From IMG/VR virus record IMGVR_UViG_3300025727_000011, positions 5,666 through 69,665 of that record: DNA of 64,000 bases, one strand, 5' to 3'. The notes under the pieces were generated by a model. That model had not been told where the DNA came from, did not search any database, and was given only the letters and a program-made list of their open reading frames with translations. Each line of letters starts with the position of its first letter. The stretch's first letter is position 1. The translations under genes and the position numbers were made by a program. The DNA comes from a virus. Below are positions 1-24,012 of the stretch, piece after piece.

Positions 1-755
1 ACGCAGATTCCGACGATGATGCGAAAGAAGCGGAGGAGGACCTTGCGGAGGAGTCCAAAAAGAAGGCATCTTCCCGTACCGAGCGTCGTTTGGCCCGGAT
101 GGAGCGTATCCTGACCAAACTCGCTGAGTCTGAGGATCCCGGTGACGACGATACCGACGATTCCGACGATGACGATGACGACGATGATGAGGAGTCCAAG
201 AAGAAGGCATCCTCCCGTACTCGCCGTACTCGCCGTACTCGCCGTGCTGAGTACATGGACGAGGTTGAGGAGATGGTGCTTGAGGAGATGATGCTTGAGG
301 AAGGCATGATGTCCAAACCTGATGAGGCTATGGACGAGGATGCCGCACTTGACGCAATGCTCATCGAAGAGGGCATGGGTCATGATGACGAAGCCGAGGC
401 GATGGATGATTTGGTGGACGAAGCCGAAGTGATCATTGATCCGATGGCGATGGCTGGCCCAGAAATGGGTGAGGACATGATGATCCTCGCCAAGCTGTTT
501 GGTGAGCGTGGTGCTGCCGATGAGAAGGAGGAAGACGCCGAGGCTGAAGCCGCCAAGACCATCCAAGAGGACAAAGAACATGCGGCTGAGGACAAGAAGG
601 AGGAATCCAAAAAGAAGGCTTCCCTCCGTCCGCAACCCAAGAAGGCCAGCCAAGGTGCCAAGACACTTGGTGGGGTCAGCAAGTCTGCTGCTTCGGAAGT
701 CAACGACCTCTCCCAGTTGTGGGAAAGTGCTCCTGATGTGAGCAAGTTCTTCTAG
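1..755 (+). CDS. Acidic capsid scaffolding-like protein, 5'-truncated by the window
   Basis: Frame is open from position 3. D/E/M-rich low-complexity protein with three EESKKKAS repeats, directly upstream of the head genes. Function inferred from position and composition. Confidence 0.6.
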   Translation, partial: ADSDDDAKEAEEDLAEESKKKASSRTERRLARMERILTKLAESEDPGDDDTDDSDDDDDDDDEESKKKASSRTRRTRRTRRAEYMDEVEEMVLEEMMLEEGMMSKPDEAMDEDAALDAMLIEEGMGHDDEAEAMDDLVDEAEVIIDPMAMAGPEMGEDMMILAKLFGERGAADEKEEDAEAEAAKTIQEDKEHAAEDKKEESKKKASLRPQPKKASQGAKTLGGVSKSAASEVNDLSQLWESAPDVSKFF

Positions 756-1609: not shown

Positions 1610-2482
1610 ATGTCTGTAACCAACGCAGTGAAGGCGAAGCTGATCAGTGACTACATCGGTAGTGCCGCTGGTCGTGCAAAGCTCGCCGCTTCAATGACTC
1701 AACCCCTCCGAATGCGCCGGGATTATCTGGCTGTCGGACGACGCACGTTCCTTGTGGAACAGTTGCCAGATGGTGCTTTGCCCATCTATGACAAAGACCC
1801 GGACGTGACCGCGTTCGTGGTTGGTGAGGAAGGTGAGAATATCATCGCCGTCACCAAGCCGCGTCGTGTGATCTTCCCCTTGTTTGAGATTGCGTCGAAC
1901 CCCGAGATCCCCCTGACCCAGATAAAAGAGCGTCGATTTGATTTGATCTCCAGGGCGCAGGATTTGGCTCGTGCCCAGATTCAAGCCGCAGAGGACGAGC
2001 GTGTATTCGCTACTCTCGATGCGGTGGCGGTCAACGGCTTCGATAGCCTCGGCAACGTCAACGCCGACATCCCTGTGGTCGCTCCGATCTCCGGTGATGT
2101 TCTCGCTGATGCGTTCAGCCTGATCGAGCGCCATGACCTGCGGGTTGCCCGCGTGTTCATGAACGCCCGTGACTACGCTGACCTCCGCAAGTTCGGTCGT
2201 GACATCCTCGACATCGAGAGCCAGCGTGATCTGCTGAAGACCGGTCTGATGGCTACCCTCTGGGGTGCCTCGATCATCGTCAGCCGTCTGGTTCCGGTTG
2301 GAACCGTGTACGTTTGTTGCGAGCCTGAGAACTTCGGTCGGATGCCTGTCCGCACGGAACTCACGGTCCTCAGCGCTGACGACCCCAAGGCGCGTACCAT
2401 CGGCTTCTCGTGTTTCGAGAACCTGGGTATCGGGTGTTTCAACCCCCGTGGTCTGACTCGTCTGGTCATCACTCGTCCGTAG
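1610..2482 (+). CDS. Major capsid protein, HK97-like fold
   Basis: 290 aa with capsid-like motifs (DYxxVGRRTFLVEQLPDGALPIYD, FEIASNPEI, MNARDYADL); strong RBS; followed by a terminator. Confidence 0.85.
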   Translation: MSVTNAVKAKLISDYIGSAAGRAKLAASMTQPLRMRRDYLAVGRRTFLVEQLPDGALPIYDKDPDVTAFVVGEEGENIIAVTKPRRVIFPLFEIASNPEIPLTQIKERRFDLISRAQDLARAQIQAAEDERVFATLDAVAVNGFDSLGNVNADIPVVAPISGDVLADAFSLIERHDLRVARVFMNARDYADLRKFGRDILDIESQRDLLKTGLMATLWGASIIVSRLVPVGTVYVCCEPENFGRMPVRTELTVLSADDPKARTIGFSCFENLGIGCFNPRGLTRLVITRP

Positions 2483-18482: not shown

Positions 18483-19703
18483 ATGGCCGTCAAAGTCCGA
18501 GTACAGAATTTTCAGTCCATTGAGGACGTTACCGTGGTGATTGACGGGCTGACCGTCATCACCGGGACGAATAATAGCGGCAAGACGGCGTTTATGCGGG
18601 CTGTCCGAGGAGTGTTCACTAACTCTCCGGCTGGTCCCTTGGTGCGTCATGGCTGTGCTCACCTTACGGTGACGTTGACCTTTGCTGATGGAACAGAGAT
18701 CATTTGGGAAAAGGGTTGGGAGAAACCCGGTCAGAAAGGCAAGACTGTCAATCGCTACACCCTCAACGGCAAGCGACTTTCAGGCGTGGGTCGCGGTGTA
18801 CCTCCTGAGATTGAGTCTTTAGGTGTGCGTGAGATCCAAGCTGCTTCTGATCGTGTGTGGCCACAGATTGCAGATCAGTTTACCGGGTCGTTGTTTTTGG
18901 TGAATAGACCCGGCTCTGCGATTGCGGAGGCTCTTTCAGATGTGGAACGTGTGGGCAAGCTGTCGTCGGCGCTCAAAGCATCAGAGAAAGACCGACGATC
19001 AGCTAACGATGAACTCAAGATCCGTCGTAAGGACGTGGCGACACATGAGAAGTCAGTCGCAGTGTTTGATGGACTCGACACCGTGGCGGCCCAGGTTCGG
19101 GGTTTGGCAGACACCCGTGATGAGATCACGAAGCTGCTCCTAAAACAGAATGTCCTTACGGAGTTGAGGACTCGACTACAGACTACGAGGGACAACGCAG
19201 AAACCCTTGCAGGATTTGACCCAGATGTGATCCCAGATTCGGCCCGAGCGGAGAAGCTGGCGAAGGCAGTGGTCAAGGTCACGGGTTTTCGAGATCAATA
19301 CGGTCATGCAAAAGAGGAGGTAGCAACCCTTGCTGGGTTCACCTCTGTCTCGGTGCCTGATGCCAGTGAAGTGCAAGGCCAACAGACCCGGCTTGAGGAA
19401 ATTCGCAATCTGGATCGGAAGCGGAGGCGGCTACAAGATGCAGTGCAAACGTATTCGGGTCTGGGCGATCTTGACTTTCCCGATACCGCGAAGATTGTCA
19501 AGATTCAAGCCTGTATAGACAAGGTGAGGACTCTCCGTAGGCGGCGTCTCTCTGCCAACACGGACTTCACCACCGCCTCTACCGAGGCCAAGCACAACGC
19601 GAAGATGCTGGCCGAAGCAGAGGCAAACGTCATCCAACTCCTGGGGGACCGGGGGCTATGTCCGACCTGCAATACCATCCATGAGGGAGAAGCTCATGTC
19701 TAA
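18483..19703 (+). CDS. sbcC: SbcC/Rad50-like ATPase, N-terminal half
   Basis: VQNFQS, Walker A GTNNSGKT and Q-loop, then coiled coil ending at zinc-hook-like CPTC. No Walker B. Confidence 0.8.
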   Translation: MAVKVRVQNFQSIEDVTVVIDGLTVITGTNNSGKTAFMRAVRGVFTNSPAGPLVRHGCAHLTVTLTFADGTEIIWEKGWEKPGQKGKTVNRYTLNGKRLSGVGRGVPPEIESLGVREIQAASDRVWPQIADQFTGSLFLVNRPGSAIAEALSDVERVGKLSSALKASEKDRRSANDELKIRRKDVATHEKSVAVFDGLDTVAAQVRGLADTRDEITKLLLKQNVLTELRTRLQTTRDNAETLAGFDPDVIPDSARAEKLAKAVVKVTGFRDQYGHAKEEVATLAGFTSVSVPDASEVQGQQTRLEEIRNLDRKRRRLQDAVQTYSGLGDLDFPDTAKIVKIQACIDKVRTLRRRRLSANTDFTTASTEAKHNAKMLAEAEANVIQLLGDRGLCPTCNTIHEGEAHV

Positions 19704-20205
19704 CGACCAACCTAGCCTTTTTGATTTGTTCGGTGCTCGTGTACGGGGTCCTGTCGGCGCACCTTTCACCCCTGGATCAACAACATCTCGGGAGGCAGCC
19801 GAATCGGTGGCTGAGGTTGCGGGTCGGTTGCGGCGCAGGGTGTACGCACACATTGTGGAGTGTGGAGAGGCGGGCACCACAGATGATGCTGCCGAAGTGG
19901 TTTTGGATATGAAGCACACCACCTATACAGCACGTCGCGGTGAACTCGTGAAGCAAGGGTTGGTGCGTGACAGCGGCAACACAGCCAAGACACGCTCAGG
20001 TCGAAATGCTGTGTTGTGGGTCATGGTGCCAGGAGATGAGATTGAAGCTGCCAAGAAAGCGTATCAGGCGCAGGAATCACGGCGGACTTTGATGCGAGCG
20101 GCGATGAGCAAGATCAAGGAGATGGCTGACGATGAGTTGGAGGATTTTATCTCTTCTGATGAAACCTCCGATGAAGATGCCTTTCTTGATTTGTTCGGGG
20201 AATAG
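19696..20205 (+). CDS. Winged-HTH-like hypothetical protein
   Basis: TSREAA...TARRGELVKQGLVRDSG...TRSGRNAVLW. Confidence 0.55.
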   Translation: MSNDQPSLFDLFGARVRGPVGAPFTPGSTTSREAAESVAEVAGRLRRRVYAHIVECGEAGTTDDAAEVVLDMKHTTYTARRGELVKQGLVRDSGNTAKTRSGRNAVLWVMVPGDEIEAAKKAYQAQESRRTLMRAAMSKIKEMADDELEDFISSDETSDEDAFLDLFGE

Positions 20206-20233
20206 GGGGTCACTCCGCTACCCGTTCCCGGTA
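20205..20233 (+). promoter_or_regulatory. Putative middle promoter
   Basis: GGGGGT-N17-CCGGTA before ATG 20256. Confidence 0.55.
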
Positions 20234-20255
20234 CATAAGGGCACGGAGGCTTCAC

Positions 20256-20561
20256 ATGCTTGACCCGATCACTTGCCGGTTCTGCTCCTCGACCAACTGC
20301 GAGCACGGCGACCACTGCGAAGACTGCGGGTGCCCCAAGTGCGGGATGCCCGGTGCTCGCTTCACCGAATCCGACGGCAACGTCCGTGGCTTCTGCTACG
20401 ACTGCGAGTGGGAAGCGGTGCTCGGTGCCTACAAGGCATGGAAGGCTCGGCAGCCGGTGAAGACGACGGAGCAGATGCGCCGTCAGGTGTTGGGTTGGCT
20501 GGGTGCTGACCTGCCCCCCGACGACGAGGTTGGCCCCATGATCATCGGGGGTGTGGAATGA
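20256..20561 (+). CDS. Cys-rich hypothetical protein
   Basis: Multiple CxxC pairs; GGAGG RBS. Confidence 0.55.
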   Translation: MLDPITCRFCSSTNCEHGDHCEDCGCPKCGMPGARFTESDGNVRGFCYDCEWEAVLGAYKAWKARQPVKTTEQMRRQVLGWLGADLPPDDEVGPMIIGGVE

Positions 20562-20608
20562 AACCACAAGTGCTACTCGACTTCTGGTCGGTCACTTGGA
20601 TCAAGTGA

Positions 20609-20821
20609 ATGGCCCGGATCTACCACGATGAACACAATGACAAGGGCGAGCGGGCATTGGTCTGGATCGTCTGCGATGACTGCGGCAAGAAAGCCAAGCC
20701 CGGTGACCCGGAGATGTTGGCGAACTGGATCAAGATGGGCTTTCACAGCGGTCGCGCTGGCGATCCATCGAACCTAGACGAGTGGGTTTACTGCGGAACC
20801 TGCAAACAGGAGCACACATGA
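20609..20821 (+). CDS. Small Zn-finger hypothetical protein
   Basis: CDDC and CGTC; overlaps the next start. Confidence 0.5.
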   Translation: MARIYHDEHNDKGERALVWIVCDDCGKKAKPGDPEMLANWIKMGFHSGRAGDPSNLDEWVYCGTCKQEHT

Positions 20822-21129
20822 GCAACCAACCCCTCAACATGGTCCGACTTCGACTTGACGTGGAGTCGATGCGGCACTCGGTCGTTCACGCTCTGATTGA
20901 CCATCAGGGTGAGATTCAGAAGCAGGTCGAAGCAGAAATCACGGAACTCGTGACCAACGGCCACCTGGAGCACAAGATCAAGGAGTCGGTACGCCATCAC
21001 CTCGACATGGCTATCAGCGAAGCCGTGAAGCACGCGATGTCGTCGTGGATCCGCGAGTCGCCCACGGTCAAGCAGGCGATTCAGAACGCCGTGACGGATG
21101 CTTTGTGGCAGACGGAGAAGAAACCATGA
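20818..21129 (+). CDS. Hypothetical helical protein
   Basis: ATGA-coupled ORF with AGGAG RBS. Confidence 0.55.
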   Translation: MSNQPLNMVRLRLDVESMRHSVVHALIDHQGEIQKQVEAEITELVTNGHLEHKIKESVRHHLDMAISEAVKHAMSSWIRESPTVKQAIQNAVTDALWQTEKKP

Positions 21130-21557
21130 TGGACACGAAGGCAGAGATGGATCTGATCCGCCAGAAGATCATGGCCGGACTCGGAGTTAGTGGGGAGATG
21201 CTGAACGGCCCGACGACCTATGCCACGTCGAGCATCAGCGCGTGGATGGTCGAGGCGTCTAAGTCCAAGATGATTACTGGACAGTTGACCCGCGACGAGT
21301 ACATCAAGGCGAACCTTGCTTCGGAGATGCGGAAGCATCGGGGCAAGAAGCGGCTCCGCAAGAAGAAAGCGAAGCGTGCCCTTCGGATGCGGTGGGGCTT
21401 CATGCAGATGGGTCGCTTGCTCGCTTCACGGAGGGTCAACTACTCGGAGATCGGTCGCAAGCTGGTCGTGGTCGATCCGCCGCCCATGTCTTCGAGCATA
21501 ATCTACGACAGTGGCATCGACATTGCTGACGTGGTGACCGGGGGCAACGATGAATGA
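21126..21557 (+). CDS. Hypothetical protein containing a capsid N-terminal-like segment
   Basis: C-terminal RRVNYSEIGRKLVVVDPPPMSSSIIYDSGIDI aligns without gaps to the major capsid segment MRRDYLAVGRRTFLVEQLPDGALPIYDKDPDV. Confidence 0.6.
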   Translation: MMDTKAEMDLIRQKIMAGLGVSGEMLNGPTTYATSSISAWMVEASKSKMITGQLTRDEYIKANLASEMRKHRGKKRLRKKKAKRALRMRWGFMQMGRLLASRRVNYSEIGRKLVVVDPPPMSSSIIYDSGIDIADVVTGGNDE

Positions 21558-21575
21558 GACAACTAGGAGGCAAAC

Positions 21576-21824
21576 ATGCCCGGATTTTTCATGATCGACA
21601 AAGGCACCAACGTGGAGACGCTGAGGCGCACTCTATGCCGCCTGCCAATGGTGGGGGAGGTCGCTATCTTCCCCTGCGACGAGACCGGGCTTCAGGTCGT
21701 TGGTGGCGCTGAAGCGGAGGCGCTACTTGTGCGGTGCGATGGAAACGCTGACTTCGCCAAGTTCGCCTGCGAATCGCAGGGTTATGCGCGGGTTCTCCCT
21801 TCACCTTGGGTGGGTGATGAGTGA
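21576..21824 (+). CDS. Hypothetical protein
   Basis: AGGAGG RBS. Confidence 0.5.
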   Translation: MPGFFMIDKGTNVETLRRTLCRLPMVGEVAIFPCDETGLQVVGGAEAEALLVRCDGNADFAKFACESQGYARVLPSPWVGDE

Positions 21825-22089
21825 CCCCGCATACCTCATCCTCAACGGCCCACATCGGGGTATGAAGCAGCAGGCCATCAATGGCCCAGTGCTACGTCTG
21901 GAGAATAACGGGATCGAGGACTTGTGGGAGATGCCCCGAGTCATCACCTACACGCTTCAGACGCTTGCCGTTGCAGACGACGGCACACAGAAGTCTCACT
22001 CTTTCTGGCTGACCGAGGACACGAAGCAGAGCGCCATCACAATGGTTGACCTGCTGGTTGACCTTGCAGGGGAGGTGAACGATGGCTAA
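21817..22089 (+). CDS. Hypothetical protein
   Basis: Coupled small ORF. Confidence 0.5.
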   Translation: MSDPAYLILNGPHRGMKQQAINGPVLRLENNGIEDLWEMPRVITYTLQTLAVADDGTQKSHSFWLTEDTKQSAITMVDLLVDLAGEVNDG

Positions 22090-22339
22090 TCGACTCAACA
22101 AGTGTCCAGCGTGCGGTGCCCTCCAGTACACGGACATCGTGGTGAAGGCCCACAACCCCGACACCACGGACATGAACATGCGGGCGACCCTCCGGTGCGG
22201 CGGTCCCGTTCCTGACGTGGTTTGGAAGGGCACGGTTCTGGAAGCCGCCCACGAGGTCGAAGGCTGCGGCCACGAGTGGGAGGGCCGGGTCACGTCCCCC
22301 CATCACCGCCGAGGACGCGAAAGAGGGGAATACATCTGA
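22082..22339 (+). CDS. Zn-ribbon hypothetical protein
   Basis: CPAC...CG...CGHEW; GGAGG RBS. Confidence 0.55.
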   Translation: MANRLNKCPACGALQYTDIVVKAHNPDTTDMNMRATLRCGGPVPDVVWKGTVLEAAHEVEGCGHEWEGRVTSPHHRRGRERGEYI

Positions 22340-22527
22340 TGCGTAAGATTTTCATGAACGTCGAGGACTACCTCGACATCGTGATGTACGGCAACCCCGA
22401 ATACGAAGGTCTGTCCGAAGAAGCCCCTCGCTCCCCCGGCAGTATCGCAGAACTCCTCCGAGAGTTGGAACAGGGGGGTCATCTTCCACTCGATTCCGGT
22501 AAAGAGGGGGAGGAGGAAACACCATGA
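22339..22527 (+). CDS. Small acidic hypothetical protein
   Basis: TGATG-coupled start (MRKIFMNVEDY...). Confidence 0.45.
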   Translation: MRKIFMNVEDYLDIVMYGNPEYEGLSEEAPRSPGSIAELLRELEQGGHLPLDSGKEGEEETP

Positions 22528-22955
22528 GCATGAGCATCAACGATGACGTATTCACCTTGTTTGGTGGTGACGATGGCCTCGGTGTTGAGATTCAACCCGT
22601 CACCCCTGTGCGAATGAAGGGCAGCAAGGAACAAGGGTTTGAGGCGTTCCACCTCGCCAACCCTCACGTCTACAAGTCCGTCGTCGCTGTCTCCCTTGAC
22701 CTCAAGGAGCGAGGGTTCCGCAAGGGTGGCATGAAGATGGTCTTTGAGCGTCTGCGATGGCTCTACGCCATCCAGACGGTTGGGGAGGACTACAAACTCA
22801 ACAACAACTACACGGCCTACTACGCCCGTCTCGTGATGGAAACGGTGCCCGACCTCGATGGGTTCTTTGAGACGCGGTTGCGCCAAGGGCAGGATCCTTA
22901 CGTCCCCGATCTTGAGACGTTGGGGTTCCCATCGAAGGGAGAGGAAACACCATGA
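22524..22955 (+). CDS. Hypothetical phage protein
   Basis: FEAFHLANPHVY...FERLRW...YKLNNNYTAYYARL...FFETR; flanked by a 19-bp direct repeat. Confidence 0.65.
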   Translation: MSMSINDDVFTLFGGDDGLGVEIQPVTPVRMKGSKEQGFEAFHLANPHVYKSVVAVSLDLKERGFRKGGMKMVFERLRWLYAIQTVGEDYKLNNNYTAYYARLVMETVPDLDGFFETRLRQGQDPYVPDLETLGFPSKGEETP

Positions 22956-23917
22956 GCATCAACCTCGTCTGGCGCACAGACGTTCACCTGTCCGACCGCG
23001 CACCGTCCTCAAGAACCGACGACTGGGCTGACACCGTGTTCGACAAGCTGGGGCAGGTCCGTGATCTCGCACGCGAGGTCAACGCCGCTGCGATCCTCGA
23101 CGGCGGTGACTTCTTCCACATCAAGTCCCCGACCCGGAACAGCCACGCGCTCGTTCACCGGACGGCAGAGCACCACGCGGACTACCCGTGCCCGGTCTAC
23201 TGCACGCCGGGGAACCACGACTCCGTGTACGGCGACTACTCATTCCTGCCCCAGCAGCCGTTGGGCGTCCTGTTCTCAACAGGGGTCTACAAGCGGCTCT
23301 ACGATGAGCACGAGGCTGTGTTCACCCACGAGGGGGTCACCGTCCGCGTAGTGGGCATTCCGTACCACGGCACCACCTACGACATGGAACGGTTCACCAG
23401 CATCGTGAAGGGCGACGAAGACGTTCTGATCTGCGTTGCTCATGTTCTCGCCAGCCACAGAGGCGGCACCATGTTTGAAGGCGAGGACATCGTGAAGTAT
23501 GCCGACCTCGTGGACACAGCCCCCGACGTGTACATGTTCGGCCACTGGCACAAGAACCAAGGCGTCGAGGAGATCGGCGGCAAGCAGTTCGTGAACATCG
23601 GCTCCCTGACCCGTGGCTCGCTCTCGCAGGACAACCTCGACCGGGTGCCCGCTGCGGCGGTGCTTCGCTGCACCAGCGATGGGGTCAAGGTCGAGGTTGT
23701 GCCACTCAACGTCCGTCCCGCCGAGGACGTGTTCGACGTGGAGGGCCGCGAGCGGCAGGTCAAGCGCCAAGTGGAGATGGATTCGTTCGTCACCGCGATC
23801 CGCGATGCGCTCCAACCTCCCGAGGACGGTGAGACGCTGGCCGAAGCCGTGACGGGCATGGACAACGTGCCCAACGAGATCCGCGAGCGGGCGTTGGCCT
23901 ACTTGGAGCAGGCGTGA
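22952..23917 (+). CDS. sbcD: SbcD/Mre11-like metallophosphoesterase nuclease
   Basis: DVH, GGDFFH, GNHD, AH and FGHWH motifs. Confidence 0.85.
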   Translation: MSINLVWRTDVHLSDRAPSSRTDDWADTVFDKLGQVRDLAREVNAAAILDGGDFFHIKSPTRNSHALVHRTAEHHADYPCPVYCTPGNHDSVYGDYSFLPQQPLGVLFSTGVYKRLYDEHEAVFTHEGVTVRVVGIPYHGTTYDMERFTSIVKGDEDVLICVAHVLASHRGGTMFEGEDIVKYADLVDTAPDVYMFGHWHKNQGVEEIGGKQFVNIGSLTRGSLSQDNLDRVPAAAVLRCTSDGVKVEVVPLNVRPAEDVFDVEGRERQVKRQVEMDSFVTAIRDALQPPEDGETLAEAVTGMDNVPNEIRERALAYLEQA

Positions 23918-24012
23918 AGCTGCGTCTGTTGCGCGGCAATCAGCTATTCGATGTGGGTGCGGCGGGAGAACCGACGCCAGCGGGTACGGTGCTCCCTGCA
24001 AAGGAACGCTCG

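What the first reader, a model, noticed from the sequence alone, without database searches (positions are those of the whole stretch)
21126..21557. Small non-structural ORF carrying a fragment of the phage's own capsid protein (and possibly a portal-like segment): candidate decoy
Seen: RRVNYSEIGRKLVVVDPPPMSSSIIYDSGIDI aligns without gaps to the capsid segment MRRDYLAVGRRTFLVEQLPDGALPIYDKDPDV (10/32 identical, plus N/D, I/V, K/R and D/E substitutions). Less certain, from memory: the N-terminal IRQKIMAGLGVSGEMLNGPTTYATSS resembles the AGLGVP...G..Y segment of phage portal proteins. The two parts are joined by a very basic linker, and the gene sits among small middle-type accessory ORFs. Established: bacterial defences sense capsid (e.g. 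CapRel) and portal (e.g. Avs) proteins. Inference: a mimic that titrates such sensors, or an assembly modulator or inhibitor of competing phages.
Basis: partly seen in the sequence, partly recalled or inferred. Interest (0 to 1): 0.7.

Follow-up and report, generated by a model that had tools for sequence, protein, structure and literature searches.

The report
Portal-capsid chimeric mini-protein, jumbo phage
A giant marine phage carries a small optional gene whose protein joins a copy of a short piece of the head portal to a copy of a short piece of the main capsid protein through an invariant positively charged helix, which most likely makes it a mimic of those two head proteins, although its target is untested.

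Summary
Both parts of the observation hold. ORF 21126-21557 (143 aa) has three parts.

- **Capsid-like end.** Residues 92-143 are homologous to residues 26-78 of the phage's own capsid protein (window 1610-2482). Profile-profile E is 1.4e-8, and 6.1e-15 with wider alignments. Reversed-template controls give E 0.17-0.71.
- **Portal-like end.** Residues 3-45 match the inner stem helix and tunnel loop of portals of related phages (E 4e-7).
- **Centre.** A polybasic helix, invariant across the family.

In 16 of 16 related records the family profile hits only the capsid gene (16) and the portal gene (15). None of these records has a true homologue.

The gene is under purifying selection. It lies in a hypervariable island between sbcC and sbcD. 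The capsid-like module also ends at least five other unrelated small-protein architectures.

No Pfam or PHROG family and none of the papers my searches listed describes it. This scan found the same kind of chimera earlier on another genome (e1-6098096).

The function is untested. I read it as an arm mimic that engages partners of unassembled head proteins. Head-assembly interference is slightly ahead of an immune decoy.

The parts
21126..21557 (+). Whole gene of the chimeric mini-protein (143 aa plus stop)
   Evidence: ORF list and translation. GGAG at 21114-21117, and the ATG overlaps the upstream stop. There are 52 homologues at E<=0.01 among 66 candidates. dN/dS is 0.26-0.45 over the whole gene against three relatives.
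21132..21260 (+). Portal-like segment, residues 3-45: end of the inner stem helix, the tunnel loop, and the start of the long wing helix. Weaker similarity runs on to about residue 73 (nt 21344).
   Evidence: hhalign against portals gives E 3.5e-6 and 4e-7. BLASTP alignments of 70-86 aa for many members end at the same portal residue. Mapping comes from the portal profile against YonE, PDB 9pha, and from domain limits in passages of PMC12847820.
21237..21293 (+). Variable middle cassette, residues 38-56, replaced by unrelated sequence in close relatives
   Evidence: The family alignment shows at least three alternative forms. Against L002 the flanks are nearly identical (dS 0.05 and 0) while the middle has dS 1.1 and dN 1.27. 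Contigs of runs X6 and X8 span the stretch, with their insertions and deletions clustered at 21238-21285.
21294..21428 (+). Conserved core, residues 57-101: a short helix followed by the invariant polybasic helix
   Evidence: Invariant columns L64 E67 G73 K75 R76 R78 K79 K80 A82 K83 L86 W90. AlphaFold2 predicts helix 75-101, with mean pLDDT 87-89 for the 10-residue blocks covering residues 61-90 and 69 for 91-100. Residues 69-103 have 17 K/R and 0 D/E. dN/dS is 0.13-0.18. This is the part present in most of the wider family.
21399..21554 (+). Capsid-like module, residues 92-143. It overlaps the end of the core helix. It is homologous to capsid protein residues 26-78 and ends at the C-terminus.
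   Evidence: hhalign gives E 1.4e-8 and 6.1e-15. A module HMM built only from 32 non-capsid proteins hits the contig's capsid protein at E 2.6e-16, with the next ORF at 0.54.
1610..2482 (+). Major capsid protein gene of the phage (290 aa). The segment copied in the mini-protein is residues 26-78 (nt 1685-1843).
   Evidence: phrog_2522 at E 1.3e-50. PDB 6wkk, phage G gp27, at E 4.3e-61. 2016 homologues.
19704..22951 (+). Hypervariable accessory island between the SbcC-like gene (18483-19703) and the SbcD-like gene (22952-23917). It holds about ten small ORFs, including the mini-protein.
   Evidence: PHROG hits identify the two flanking genes. The same interval is 14 bp in G018, about 0.3 kb in G007, about 1.15 kb in G006 and about 3 kb with different cargo in G016 and LR745208.1. 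No CGGTA-N6-CTAT motif lies between 9884 and 33775.

Best explanation
The gene encodes a real, selected, optional mini-protein with three parts.

- **Residues 3-45 (weakly to about 73).** These copy the portal's inner stem helix, tunnel loop and the start of the long wing helix.
- **Residues 57-101.** These form an invariant polybasic helix.
- **Residues 92-143.** These copy the capsid protein from the end of its N-terminal arm to the rising strand of the E-loop.

Both copied pieces are arms by which unassembled head subunits contact neighbours and assembly partners. I read the protein as an arm mimic that plugs into the head-assembly network of this phage lineage. Its likely partners are free capsid subunits, the very acidic putative scaffold encoded just upstream of the capsid gene, or portal subunits. 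It would compete with the real arms.

The gene is optional and lies among replication and recombination genes. The most likely outcome is therefore interference with, or timing of, head assembly, either its own or that of a co-infecting relative. This would resemble the small dominant-negative 'microProteins' of eukaryotes. Passive loading into the head is less likely.

Shown here: the homologies, the conservation, the modular reuse of the capsid-like piece, and the optional, island-borne status of the gene. Inferred: every binding step and the outcome.
For: - **Homology to exactly two head proteins.** In 13 of 13 related viral records the family profile hits the capsid gene and the portal gene and nothing else. 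In three whole phage records it hits the capsid gene in 3 of 3 and the portal gene in 2 of 3, including the annotated gp27 and gp14 of phage G. Among 5663 ORFs of 16 loci, only 13 capsid and 10 portal ORFs score E<=1.
- **Conservation of the module.** It keeps the residues shared by divergent capsid clades, in the pattern RR.(D/N)Y..(I/V)(G/A)R..F.VE.LP...P.Y..D.D. This holds across remote members, as expected if the partner is conserved in the phage lineage.
- **Portability.** The module sits at the C-terminus, with the same end point, on unrelated carriers: P0245/P0255/P0259, P0257 and P0253. phrog_2522 independently hits that part in P0238, P0248 and P0253.
- **Selection.** All three parts are under purifying selection, with dN/dS 0.13-0.50 where substitutions suffice.
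- **Fold.** AlphaFold2 gives a confident central helix and unstructured ends, which fits ends that fold on a partner.
- **Charge.** The putative scaffold has 99 D/E in 378 aa, and the first 50 residues of the capsid protein have 9 K/R and 3 D/E.
Against: - No binding was shown by any tool.
- The gene is not near late genes or the late-promoter-like motif. It was not found in any of 16 related records. An assembly function therefore cannot be essential.
- In this window the module is only 13/41 identical to the phage's own capsid segment, so it is not a close copy of the resident protein.
- The same facts (optional, island-borne, mimicking the two head proteins that host defences are known to sense) fit an immune decoy about as well.
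- The role of the invariant basic helix is unexplained in detail.
- The portal-like part is present in only 14 of 100 representative hits, so it is not needed for the family's core function.
Confidence: 0.4

Rival explanations
1. Immune decoy or bait. The capsid-like and portal-like ends are recognised by host sensors of newly made capsid and portal proteins. The mini-protein is made before the real head proteins. It occupies or jams those sensors without switching them on. The basic helix, or in other carriers other N-terminal domains, acts as the blocking part.
For: - The gene is optional. It lies in a hypervariable island whose cargo in relatives includes methyltransferase-like genes, read by eye from the translations. 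It lies outside the late-gene region.
- Capsid and portal proteins are documented triggers. CapRel binds a capsid protein, and its modelled contact is with the P-domain (passages of PMC9712102). [quoted passage not shown]
- Modular reuse of the capsid-like piece on other carriers fits a bait-plus-warhead design.
Against: - No decoy made of a phage's own head-protein fragments appears in the papers that my searches listed or that I read in passages.
- The sensors cited grip folded domains. SpbK grips the clip, which the mini-protein lacks.
- The one peptide-sized capsid trigger I recall (T4 Gol with Lit) activates its sensor.
- Conservation of capsid-consensus residues across about 100 divergent clusters is easier to explain by a phage-encoded partner than by patchily distributed host sensors.
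Confidence: 0.27
2. Capsid-docking tag. The C-terminal module docks its carrier onto the inner face of the assembling shell or onto the scaffold. The basic helix, which would bind DNA, is then packaged in the head as an internal protein.
For: - A terminal position, a sharp boundary and presence on unrelated carriers are what targeting peptides look like.
- The basic helix suits DNA binding.
Against: - The gene is among replication and recombination genes with no late-promoter-like motif nearby.
- It is optional.
- An earlier, untested note of this scan already assigns head targeting in this phage to an N-terminal leader on late proteins (e1-6180381).
Confidence: 0.13
3. Nucleic-acid-binding or ribosome-binding regulator. 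The invariant polybasic helix is the working part. The head-protein-like ends are leftovers of the recombination events that created the gene and are kept only for folding or stability.
For: - The basic core is the most conserved part (dN/dS 0.13-0.18; invariant columns).
- It is the part found in most of the wider family: 71 of 100 representative hits begin in the middle of the profile.
- The N-terminal portal-like part is dispensable in most members.
Against: - The capsid-like module is also under purifying selection (dN/dS 0.28-0.50). In remote members it stays at or near the capsid consensus.
- The module recurs without the basic core on other proteins, so it has a function of its own.
Confidence: 0.15
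4. A gene remnant or annotation artefact with no function.
For: It is small, matches no family library, and no RNA evidence was available.
Against: - 52 close homologues and 100 representative clusters.
- An intact frame in independent metagenome contigs.
- dN/dS well below 1.
- A ribosome-binding site and a coupled start.
Confidence: 0.03

Closest known systems
Portal proteins of phage-G-like jumbo phages (phrog_16240; phage G gp14; SPbeta YonE, PDB 9pha)
   Same: Residues 3-45 align to the stretch just after the clip: the second stem helix and the tunnel loop, with an AGLGV...LNG...Y motif. phrog_16240 hits member P0011 at E 0.0086.
   Different: Only 43-73 of some 560-650 portal residues are represented. 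There is no clip, wing or crown, so it cannot form a portal ring.
HK97-fold major capsid protein of phage G type (phrog_2522; gp27, PDB 6wkk)
   Same: The last 52 residues are homologous to capsid residues 26-78.
   Different: There is no spine helix, A-domain, rest of the P-domain or returning E-loop strand. It cannot be a shell subunit.
T4 Gol peptide of gp23, which activates the Lit protease (recalled, not from any call)
   Same: A short stretch from the N-terminal part of a capsid protein that acts on its own as a ligand for another protein.
   Different: Gol is part of the capsid protein itself, not a separate gene. Its equivalence of position with this module is my inference and was not tested.
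Capsid-targeting peptides: the T4 CTS and encapsulin cargo-loading peptides (recalled), and the N-terminal leader noted in this same phage (e1-6180381)
   Same: A discrete terminal module found on unrelated carrier proteins.
   Different: As I recall them, those peptides are about 10-30 residues long and are not copies of the shell protein. This module is a 50-residue copy of the shell protein's own arm, on non-late, optional genes.
Eukaryotic microProteins, small dominant-negative copies of an interaction domain (recalled)
   Same: A small protein derived from the interaction part of a larger one, expected to titrate its partners.
   Different: This one is in a different domain of life, copies two different parent proteins at once, and has had no interference demonstrated.
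Phage anti-defence mimics and inhibitors (review PMC13728456, passages read)
   Same: A small, optional phage protein that could act by mimicry.
   Different: The passages shown for my four search terms describe an antitoxin mimic and direct inhibitors of defence enzymes. They describe no copy of the phage's own structural proteins.

Membership tests
Portal protein (phrog_16240 type) | Full-length match covering the clip, stem, wing and crown domains | tested here: not met
   The match covers 36-43 columns, and at most about 73-86 residues by BLASTP, of portals 560-602 aa long. P0001 itself has no PHROG or Pfam hit.
Portal protein (phrog_16240 type) | Conserved stem-helix and tunnel-loop motif | tested here: met
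   hhalign E 4e-7. The same stretch aligns in YonE residues 314-384, which the paper places within the stem, clip and tunnel-loop region 249-368.
HK97-fold major capsid protein (phrog_2522 / 6wkk) | Complete fold: N-arm, E-loop hairpin, P-domain with spine helix, A-domain | tested here: not met
   Only capsid residues 26-78 are matched, and the protein ends there.
HK97-fold major capsid protein (phrog_2522 / 6wkk) | N-terminal arm motif shared by divergent capsid clades | tested here: met
   E 6.1e-15 against 10 diverse capsid proteins. The motif is listed side by side.
Capsid-targeting or cargo-loading peptides | Discrete terminal tag on unrelated carrier proteins | tested here: met
   Of 15 module-only hits among 100, 5 are capsid fragments and 10 are not. 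I read three of the 10 as pieces of the mini-protein family or as fragments: P0217, P0247, and P0260 at 39 aa. The other 7 proteins, in 5 architectures, carry the module at or near the C-terminus. Two of them (P0238, P0248) lie on contigs of only 805 and 1200 bases.
Capsid-targeting or cargo-loading peptides | Carrier is present in virions, or is co-expressed with head genes | tested here: inconclusive
   There is no late-promoter-like motif between 9884 and 33775, and the gene sits in the recombination gene cluster. Virion content is not testable with these tools.
Anti-defence decoy or sensor inhibitor | Binds a host defence sensor and prevents its activation | not testable with these tools
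   The host is unknown and no defence protein was available to pair it with.
Anti-defence decoy or sensor inhibitor | Optional gene in a variable region, outside the late module | tested here: met
   No homologue in 16 of 16 related records. The sbcC-sbcD interval varies from 14 bp to 3.25 kb.
Dominant-negative microProtein | Derived from the interaction part of a larger protein | tested here: met
   The homologies above establish the derivation. That the N-arm, the E-loop and the stem and tunnel-loop helices are inter-subunit contacts is established knowledge of HK97-fold shells and portals. It was not measured here.
Dominant-negative microProtein | Forms non-productive complexes with the parent protein or its partners | not testable with these tools
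   It needs binding and assembly assays.

The most novel reading that the evidence does not exclude
Jumbo phages of the phage-G lineage carry a family of 'head-arm mimics'. These are small optional proteins that display a copy of the capsid protein's N-terminal arm and, in one branch, also the portal's tunnel-loop region. The copies sit on an invariant polybasic helix or on other carrier domains. They would serve as weapons in conflicts: to blind host sensors of newly made head proteins, or to poison head assembly of co-infecting rival phages. That would be a new class of phage conflict protein, built from fragments of the phage's own virion genes.
Probability: 0.45. Interest if true: 0.85.

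Novelty: new variant of a known kind. Interest (0 to 1): 0.62.

Why it matters
Capsid and portal proteins are the phage parts that many bacterial defences watch for, and they are the two proteins that start head assembly. A conserved phage gene built from short copies of exactly those two proteins would be a new way for a virus to manipulate either host sensing or head assembly.

It also gives two ready-made peptides of about 45-50 residues each. These peptides mark which surfaces of unassembled capsid and portal subunits matter to a binding partner.

The family is widespread in marine metagenomes, with 100 clusters at 50% identity and DNA holders in 17 studies. It could be tested with cloned genes, without culturing the phage.

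Tried and rejected
**Complex prediction.** I ran the capsid protein with residues 60-143 of the mini-protein. The verdict was 'no answer'. I do not count it for or against binding.

**Structure of the capsid protein.** The prediction from alignment A2 failed, with mean pLDDT 32.6. The reason is that the 20 rows are more than 85% identical. I therefore could not map the module on a model. The mapping to N-arm and E-loop rests on fold order and on that weak model's strand positions, and is an inference. I ran no fold search on the mini-protein model, because its pLDDT of 63 is too low.

**RNA evidence.** No RNA holder was listed.

**Contigs of other runs.** These are contigs, not reads, so they say nothing about expression.

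**Second homology to the capsid N-terminal helices.** I tested whether the short helix at residues 57-68 plus the basic helix is a copy of the capsid protein's N-terminal helices. hhalign with alternative alignments found no second match; the best was E 0.59. Rejected.

**Ribosomal-protein look of the basic core.** I considered that it resembles a ribosomal protein, from recall. Pfam gave nothing for P0001, P0011 or P0009, so I dropped the idea.

**Repair template.** I considered that the DNA serves as a repair template for homing-endonuclease cuts in the portal or capsid genes. I rejected this because the protein-level identity to the resident capsid gene is only 13/41.

**Other look-ups that gave nothing.**
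- megablast of window 20000-24000, the stretch around the gene, against 50,697 phage records: no match.
- tblastn of P0001 against the same records: no match.
- PF04860 in five related records: no match.
- P0245 in viral contigs: no relative.
- ESM Atlas: the nearest clusters are portal fragments at scores 0.75-0.78, below the level that counts, so a lead only.
- The moraphage paper PMC12619734 concerns another lineage.

**Limits.** Supplementary files of papers were not consulted.

Full report
**What is there.**
The window is bases 5666-69665 of a 69,665-base viral metagenome contig. CheckV estimates it at 15% complete. Its GC content is 56%. The ORF at 21126-21557 on the + strand encodes 143 residues. 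It has GGAG 8 nt upstream of the start, and its ATG overlaps the stop of the preceding ORF. Neither Pfam nor PHROGs matches it. That ORF is the major capsid protein: phrog_2522 at E 1.3e-50, and phage G gp27 (PDB 6wkk) at E 4.3e-61. Its closest relatives in the phage collection are:
- an uncultured 485-kb phage (84% identity)
- Tunturiibacter phage Tunturi_5 (50%)
- Bacillus phage G (38.5%)

**The capsid-like end is real homology.**
- BLASTP of the two proteins gives 13/41 identities, E 8e-4.
- The mini-protein has 52 homologues at E<=0.01 among 66 candidates. An alignment of 24 of them (A1) shows that the consensus is closer to the capsid segment than this window's copy is.
- hhalign of A1 against 20 capsid proteins gives 95.5% probability, E 1.4e-8, over 49 columns.
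- With 44 family members and 10 diverse capsid proteins it gives 98.4%, E 6.1e-15, over 53 columns. This places residues 92-143 against capsid residues 26-78.
- Controls: reversed templates give E 0.17-0.71. Of 63 plus-strand ORFs of 150 aa or more in the contig, the capsid protein scores 1.1e-7 and the next best 0.03.
- The family HMM against all 1282 six-frame ORFs of the contig finds only the capsid protein (4e-7), with the next at 1.4.
- An HMM of the module built from 32 proteins that are not capsid proteins finds the capsid protein at 2.6e-16, with the next at 0.54. It also finds 13 of 13 capsid genes in related loci.

**The portal-like end is also real.**
The contig begins downstream of the portal gene, so I took portals from relatives.
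- In a 232-kb relative the portal is the 560-aa ORF next to the large terminase (phrog_16240, E 2e-47).
- Closer relatives carry a portal with the motif AGLGVTE..LSGESSY. The mini-protein has AGLGVSGEMLNGPTTY.
- hhalign gives E 3.5e-6 over 36 columns, and E 4e-7 over 43 columns against a 13-portal alignment. The reversed control gives 0.71.
- 19 of 24 family members align by BLASTP at E<=1e-3 to the same portal stretch, many over 70-86 residues ending just before the basic run. This used a small database with composition correction off, so it is supportive only.
- The portal profile reaches one solved structure, SPbeta YonE (9pha, E 0.0046). There the motif falls at about residues 325-350.
- Passages of PMC12847820 place the clip at 270-325, and the stem, clip and tunnel loop together at 249-368. 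The copied piece is therefore the stem helix after the clip plus the tunnel loop. That last step is my inference.

**Specificity across genomes.**
- In 13 of 13 related viral records the family profile gives exactly two matches each. One is the capsid gene (E 4.8e-9 to 7.8e-7). The other is the portal gene (E 2.2e-4 to 8.8e-3).
- In three whole phage records it hits the capsid gene in 3 of 3 and the portal gene in 2 of 3. In phage G these are the annotated gp27 and gp14.
- Among 5663 ORFs of 16 loci, nothing else scores E<=1.
- None of these 16 records holds a true homologue. tblastn finds none in 50,697 phage records either. The gene is therefore optional.

**The family.**
A profile search of 1.84 billion representatives finds 100 proteins at E<=1e-3.
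- 14 include the portal-like start.
- 71 begin in the middle. One of these, P0230, is a repeat protein and probably spurious.
- 15 match only the capsid-like module.

The invariant heart is RG.KR(L/I)RKKKA followed by RR.NY..GR..F.VEPLP. I read all 15 module-only hits:
- 5 are capsid fragments.
- 3 look like pieces of the family or fragments.
- 7 are other proteins, in five architectures, that carry the module at or near their C-terminus with the same end point. Two of these lie on very short contigs.

PHROG's capsid profile hits that part in three of these proteins.

**Shape and selection.**
- AlphaFold2 (mean pLDDT 63) predicts a confident helix at 75-101 and low-confidence ends.
- Residues 69-103 have 17 K/R and no D/E.
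- dN/dS against three relatives is 0.30-0.33 for the portal-like part, 0.13-0.18 for the core and 0.28-0.50 for the module, wherever there are enough changes.
- Against the closest relative the two ends are almost identical in DNA, while residues 38-56 are replaced outright. The gene is therefore mosaic. Contigs of other seawater runs show the same cassette difference.

**Setting.**
- The gene lies between an SbcC-like and an SbcD-like gene.
- That interval is 3.25 kb here. It is 14 bp in G018, about 0.3 kb in G007 and 1.15 kb in G006. It is about 3 kb with quite different cargo in G016 and LR745208.1, including genes that I read by eye as methyltransferase-like.
That it is a promoter is untested.

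**Reading.**
The homologies, the conservation, the portability and the optional status are shown. What the protein binds is not. I favour an arm mimic that engages partners within the phage's own head-assembly network (0.40), most likely to interfere with or time assembly. The reason is that the module keeps the capsid consensus over the whole family. An immune decoy is close behind (0.27). A docking tag for packaging (0.13) and a basic-helix regulator with relic ends (0.15) remain possible.

**Prior work.**
The papers listed by my searches for capsid or portal decoys and mimics, and the passages I read in the 2026 review, describe no such protein. This scan reported the same kind of chimera on another genome (e1-6098096). 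My tests here were made independently on this window.

Noticed in passing
L088, L090, L092, L093, L094 (portal loci of related viral contigs): 5 of 80 portal ORFs are 745-803 aa instead of about 560-600. They carry an insertion ending ...HGN immediately before the conserved TYASSS of the tunnel loop. This looks like an intein at exactly the stretch copied in the mini-protein. It was not checked against intein profiles.
   Followed up: no
L105:3295-6594 and L106:4179-7469: Portal ORFs of 1100 and 1097 aa. The match to a normal portal is split between about residues 276 and 283, suggesting a second large insertion site, probably another intein.
   Followed up: no
window 19704-22951, compared with L147-L150: The sbcC-sbcD interval is a hot spot for optional genes. 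Its length ranges from 14 bp to 3.25 kb. Its cargo differs between relatives: duplicated homologues of window ORF 19681-20205, genes I read by eye as methyltransferase-like, and a Zn-finger ORF.
   Followed up: partly
proteins P0245, P0255, P0259, P0257, P0253 (metagenome proteins): Unrelated small proteins end in the same 45-50-residue copy of the capsid N-terminal arm. P0253 also has a partial second copy at its N-terminus.
   Followed up: partly
proteins P0238 and P0248: Two proteins have a twin-arginine-signal-like start followed by capsid residues from about 12 to 75. They lie on contigs of 805 and 1200 bases, so they may be incomplete genes.
   Followed up: no
window 20200-22500, run X20: One run labelled with a named (coded) organism rather than 'metagenome' holds 63% of the sampled words of this stretch, on contigs at low depth. 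It could point to a culture or host association.
   Followed up: no
contig bases 5284-6420 (upstream of the window's start, into window 1-755): A 378-aa protein with 99 D/E residues (pI 4.35) lies between the head protease (phrog_18299) and the capsid gene. It is probably the scaffolding protein. It has no family match.
   Followed up: partly
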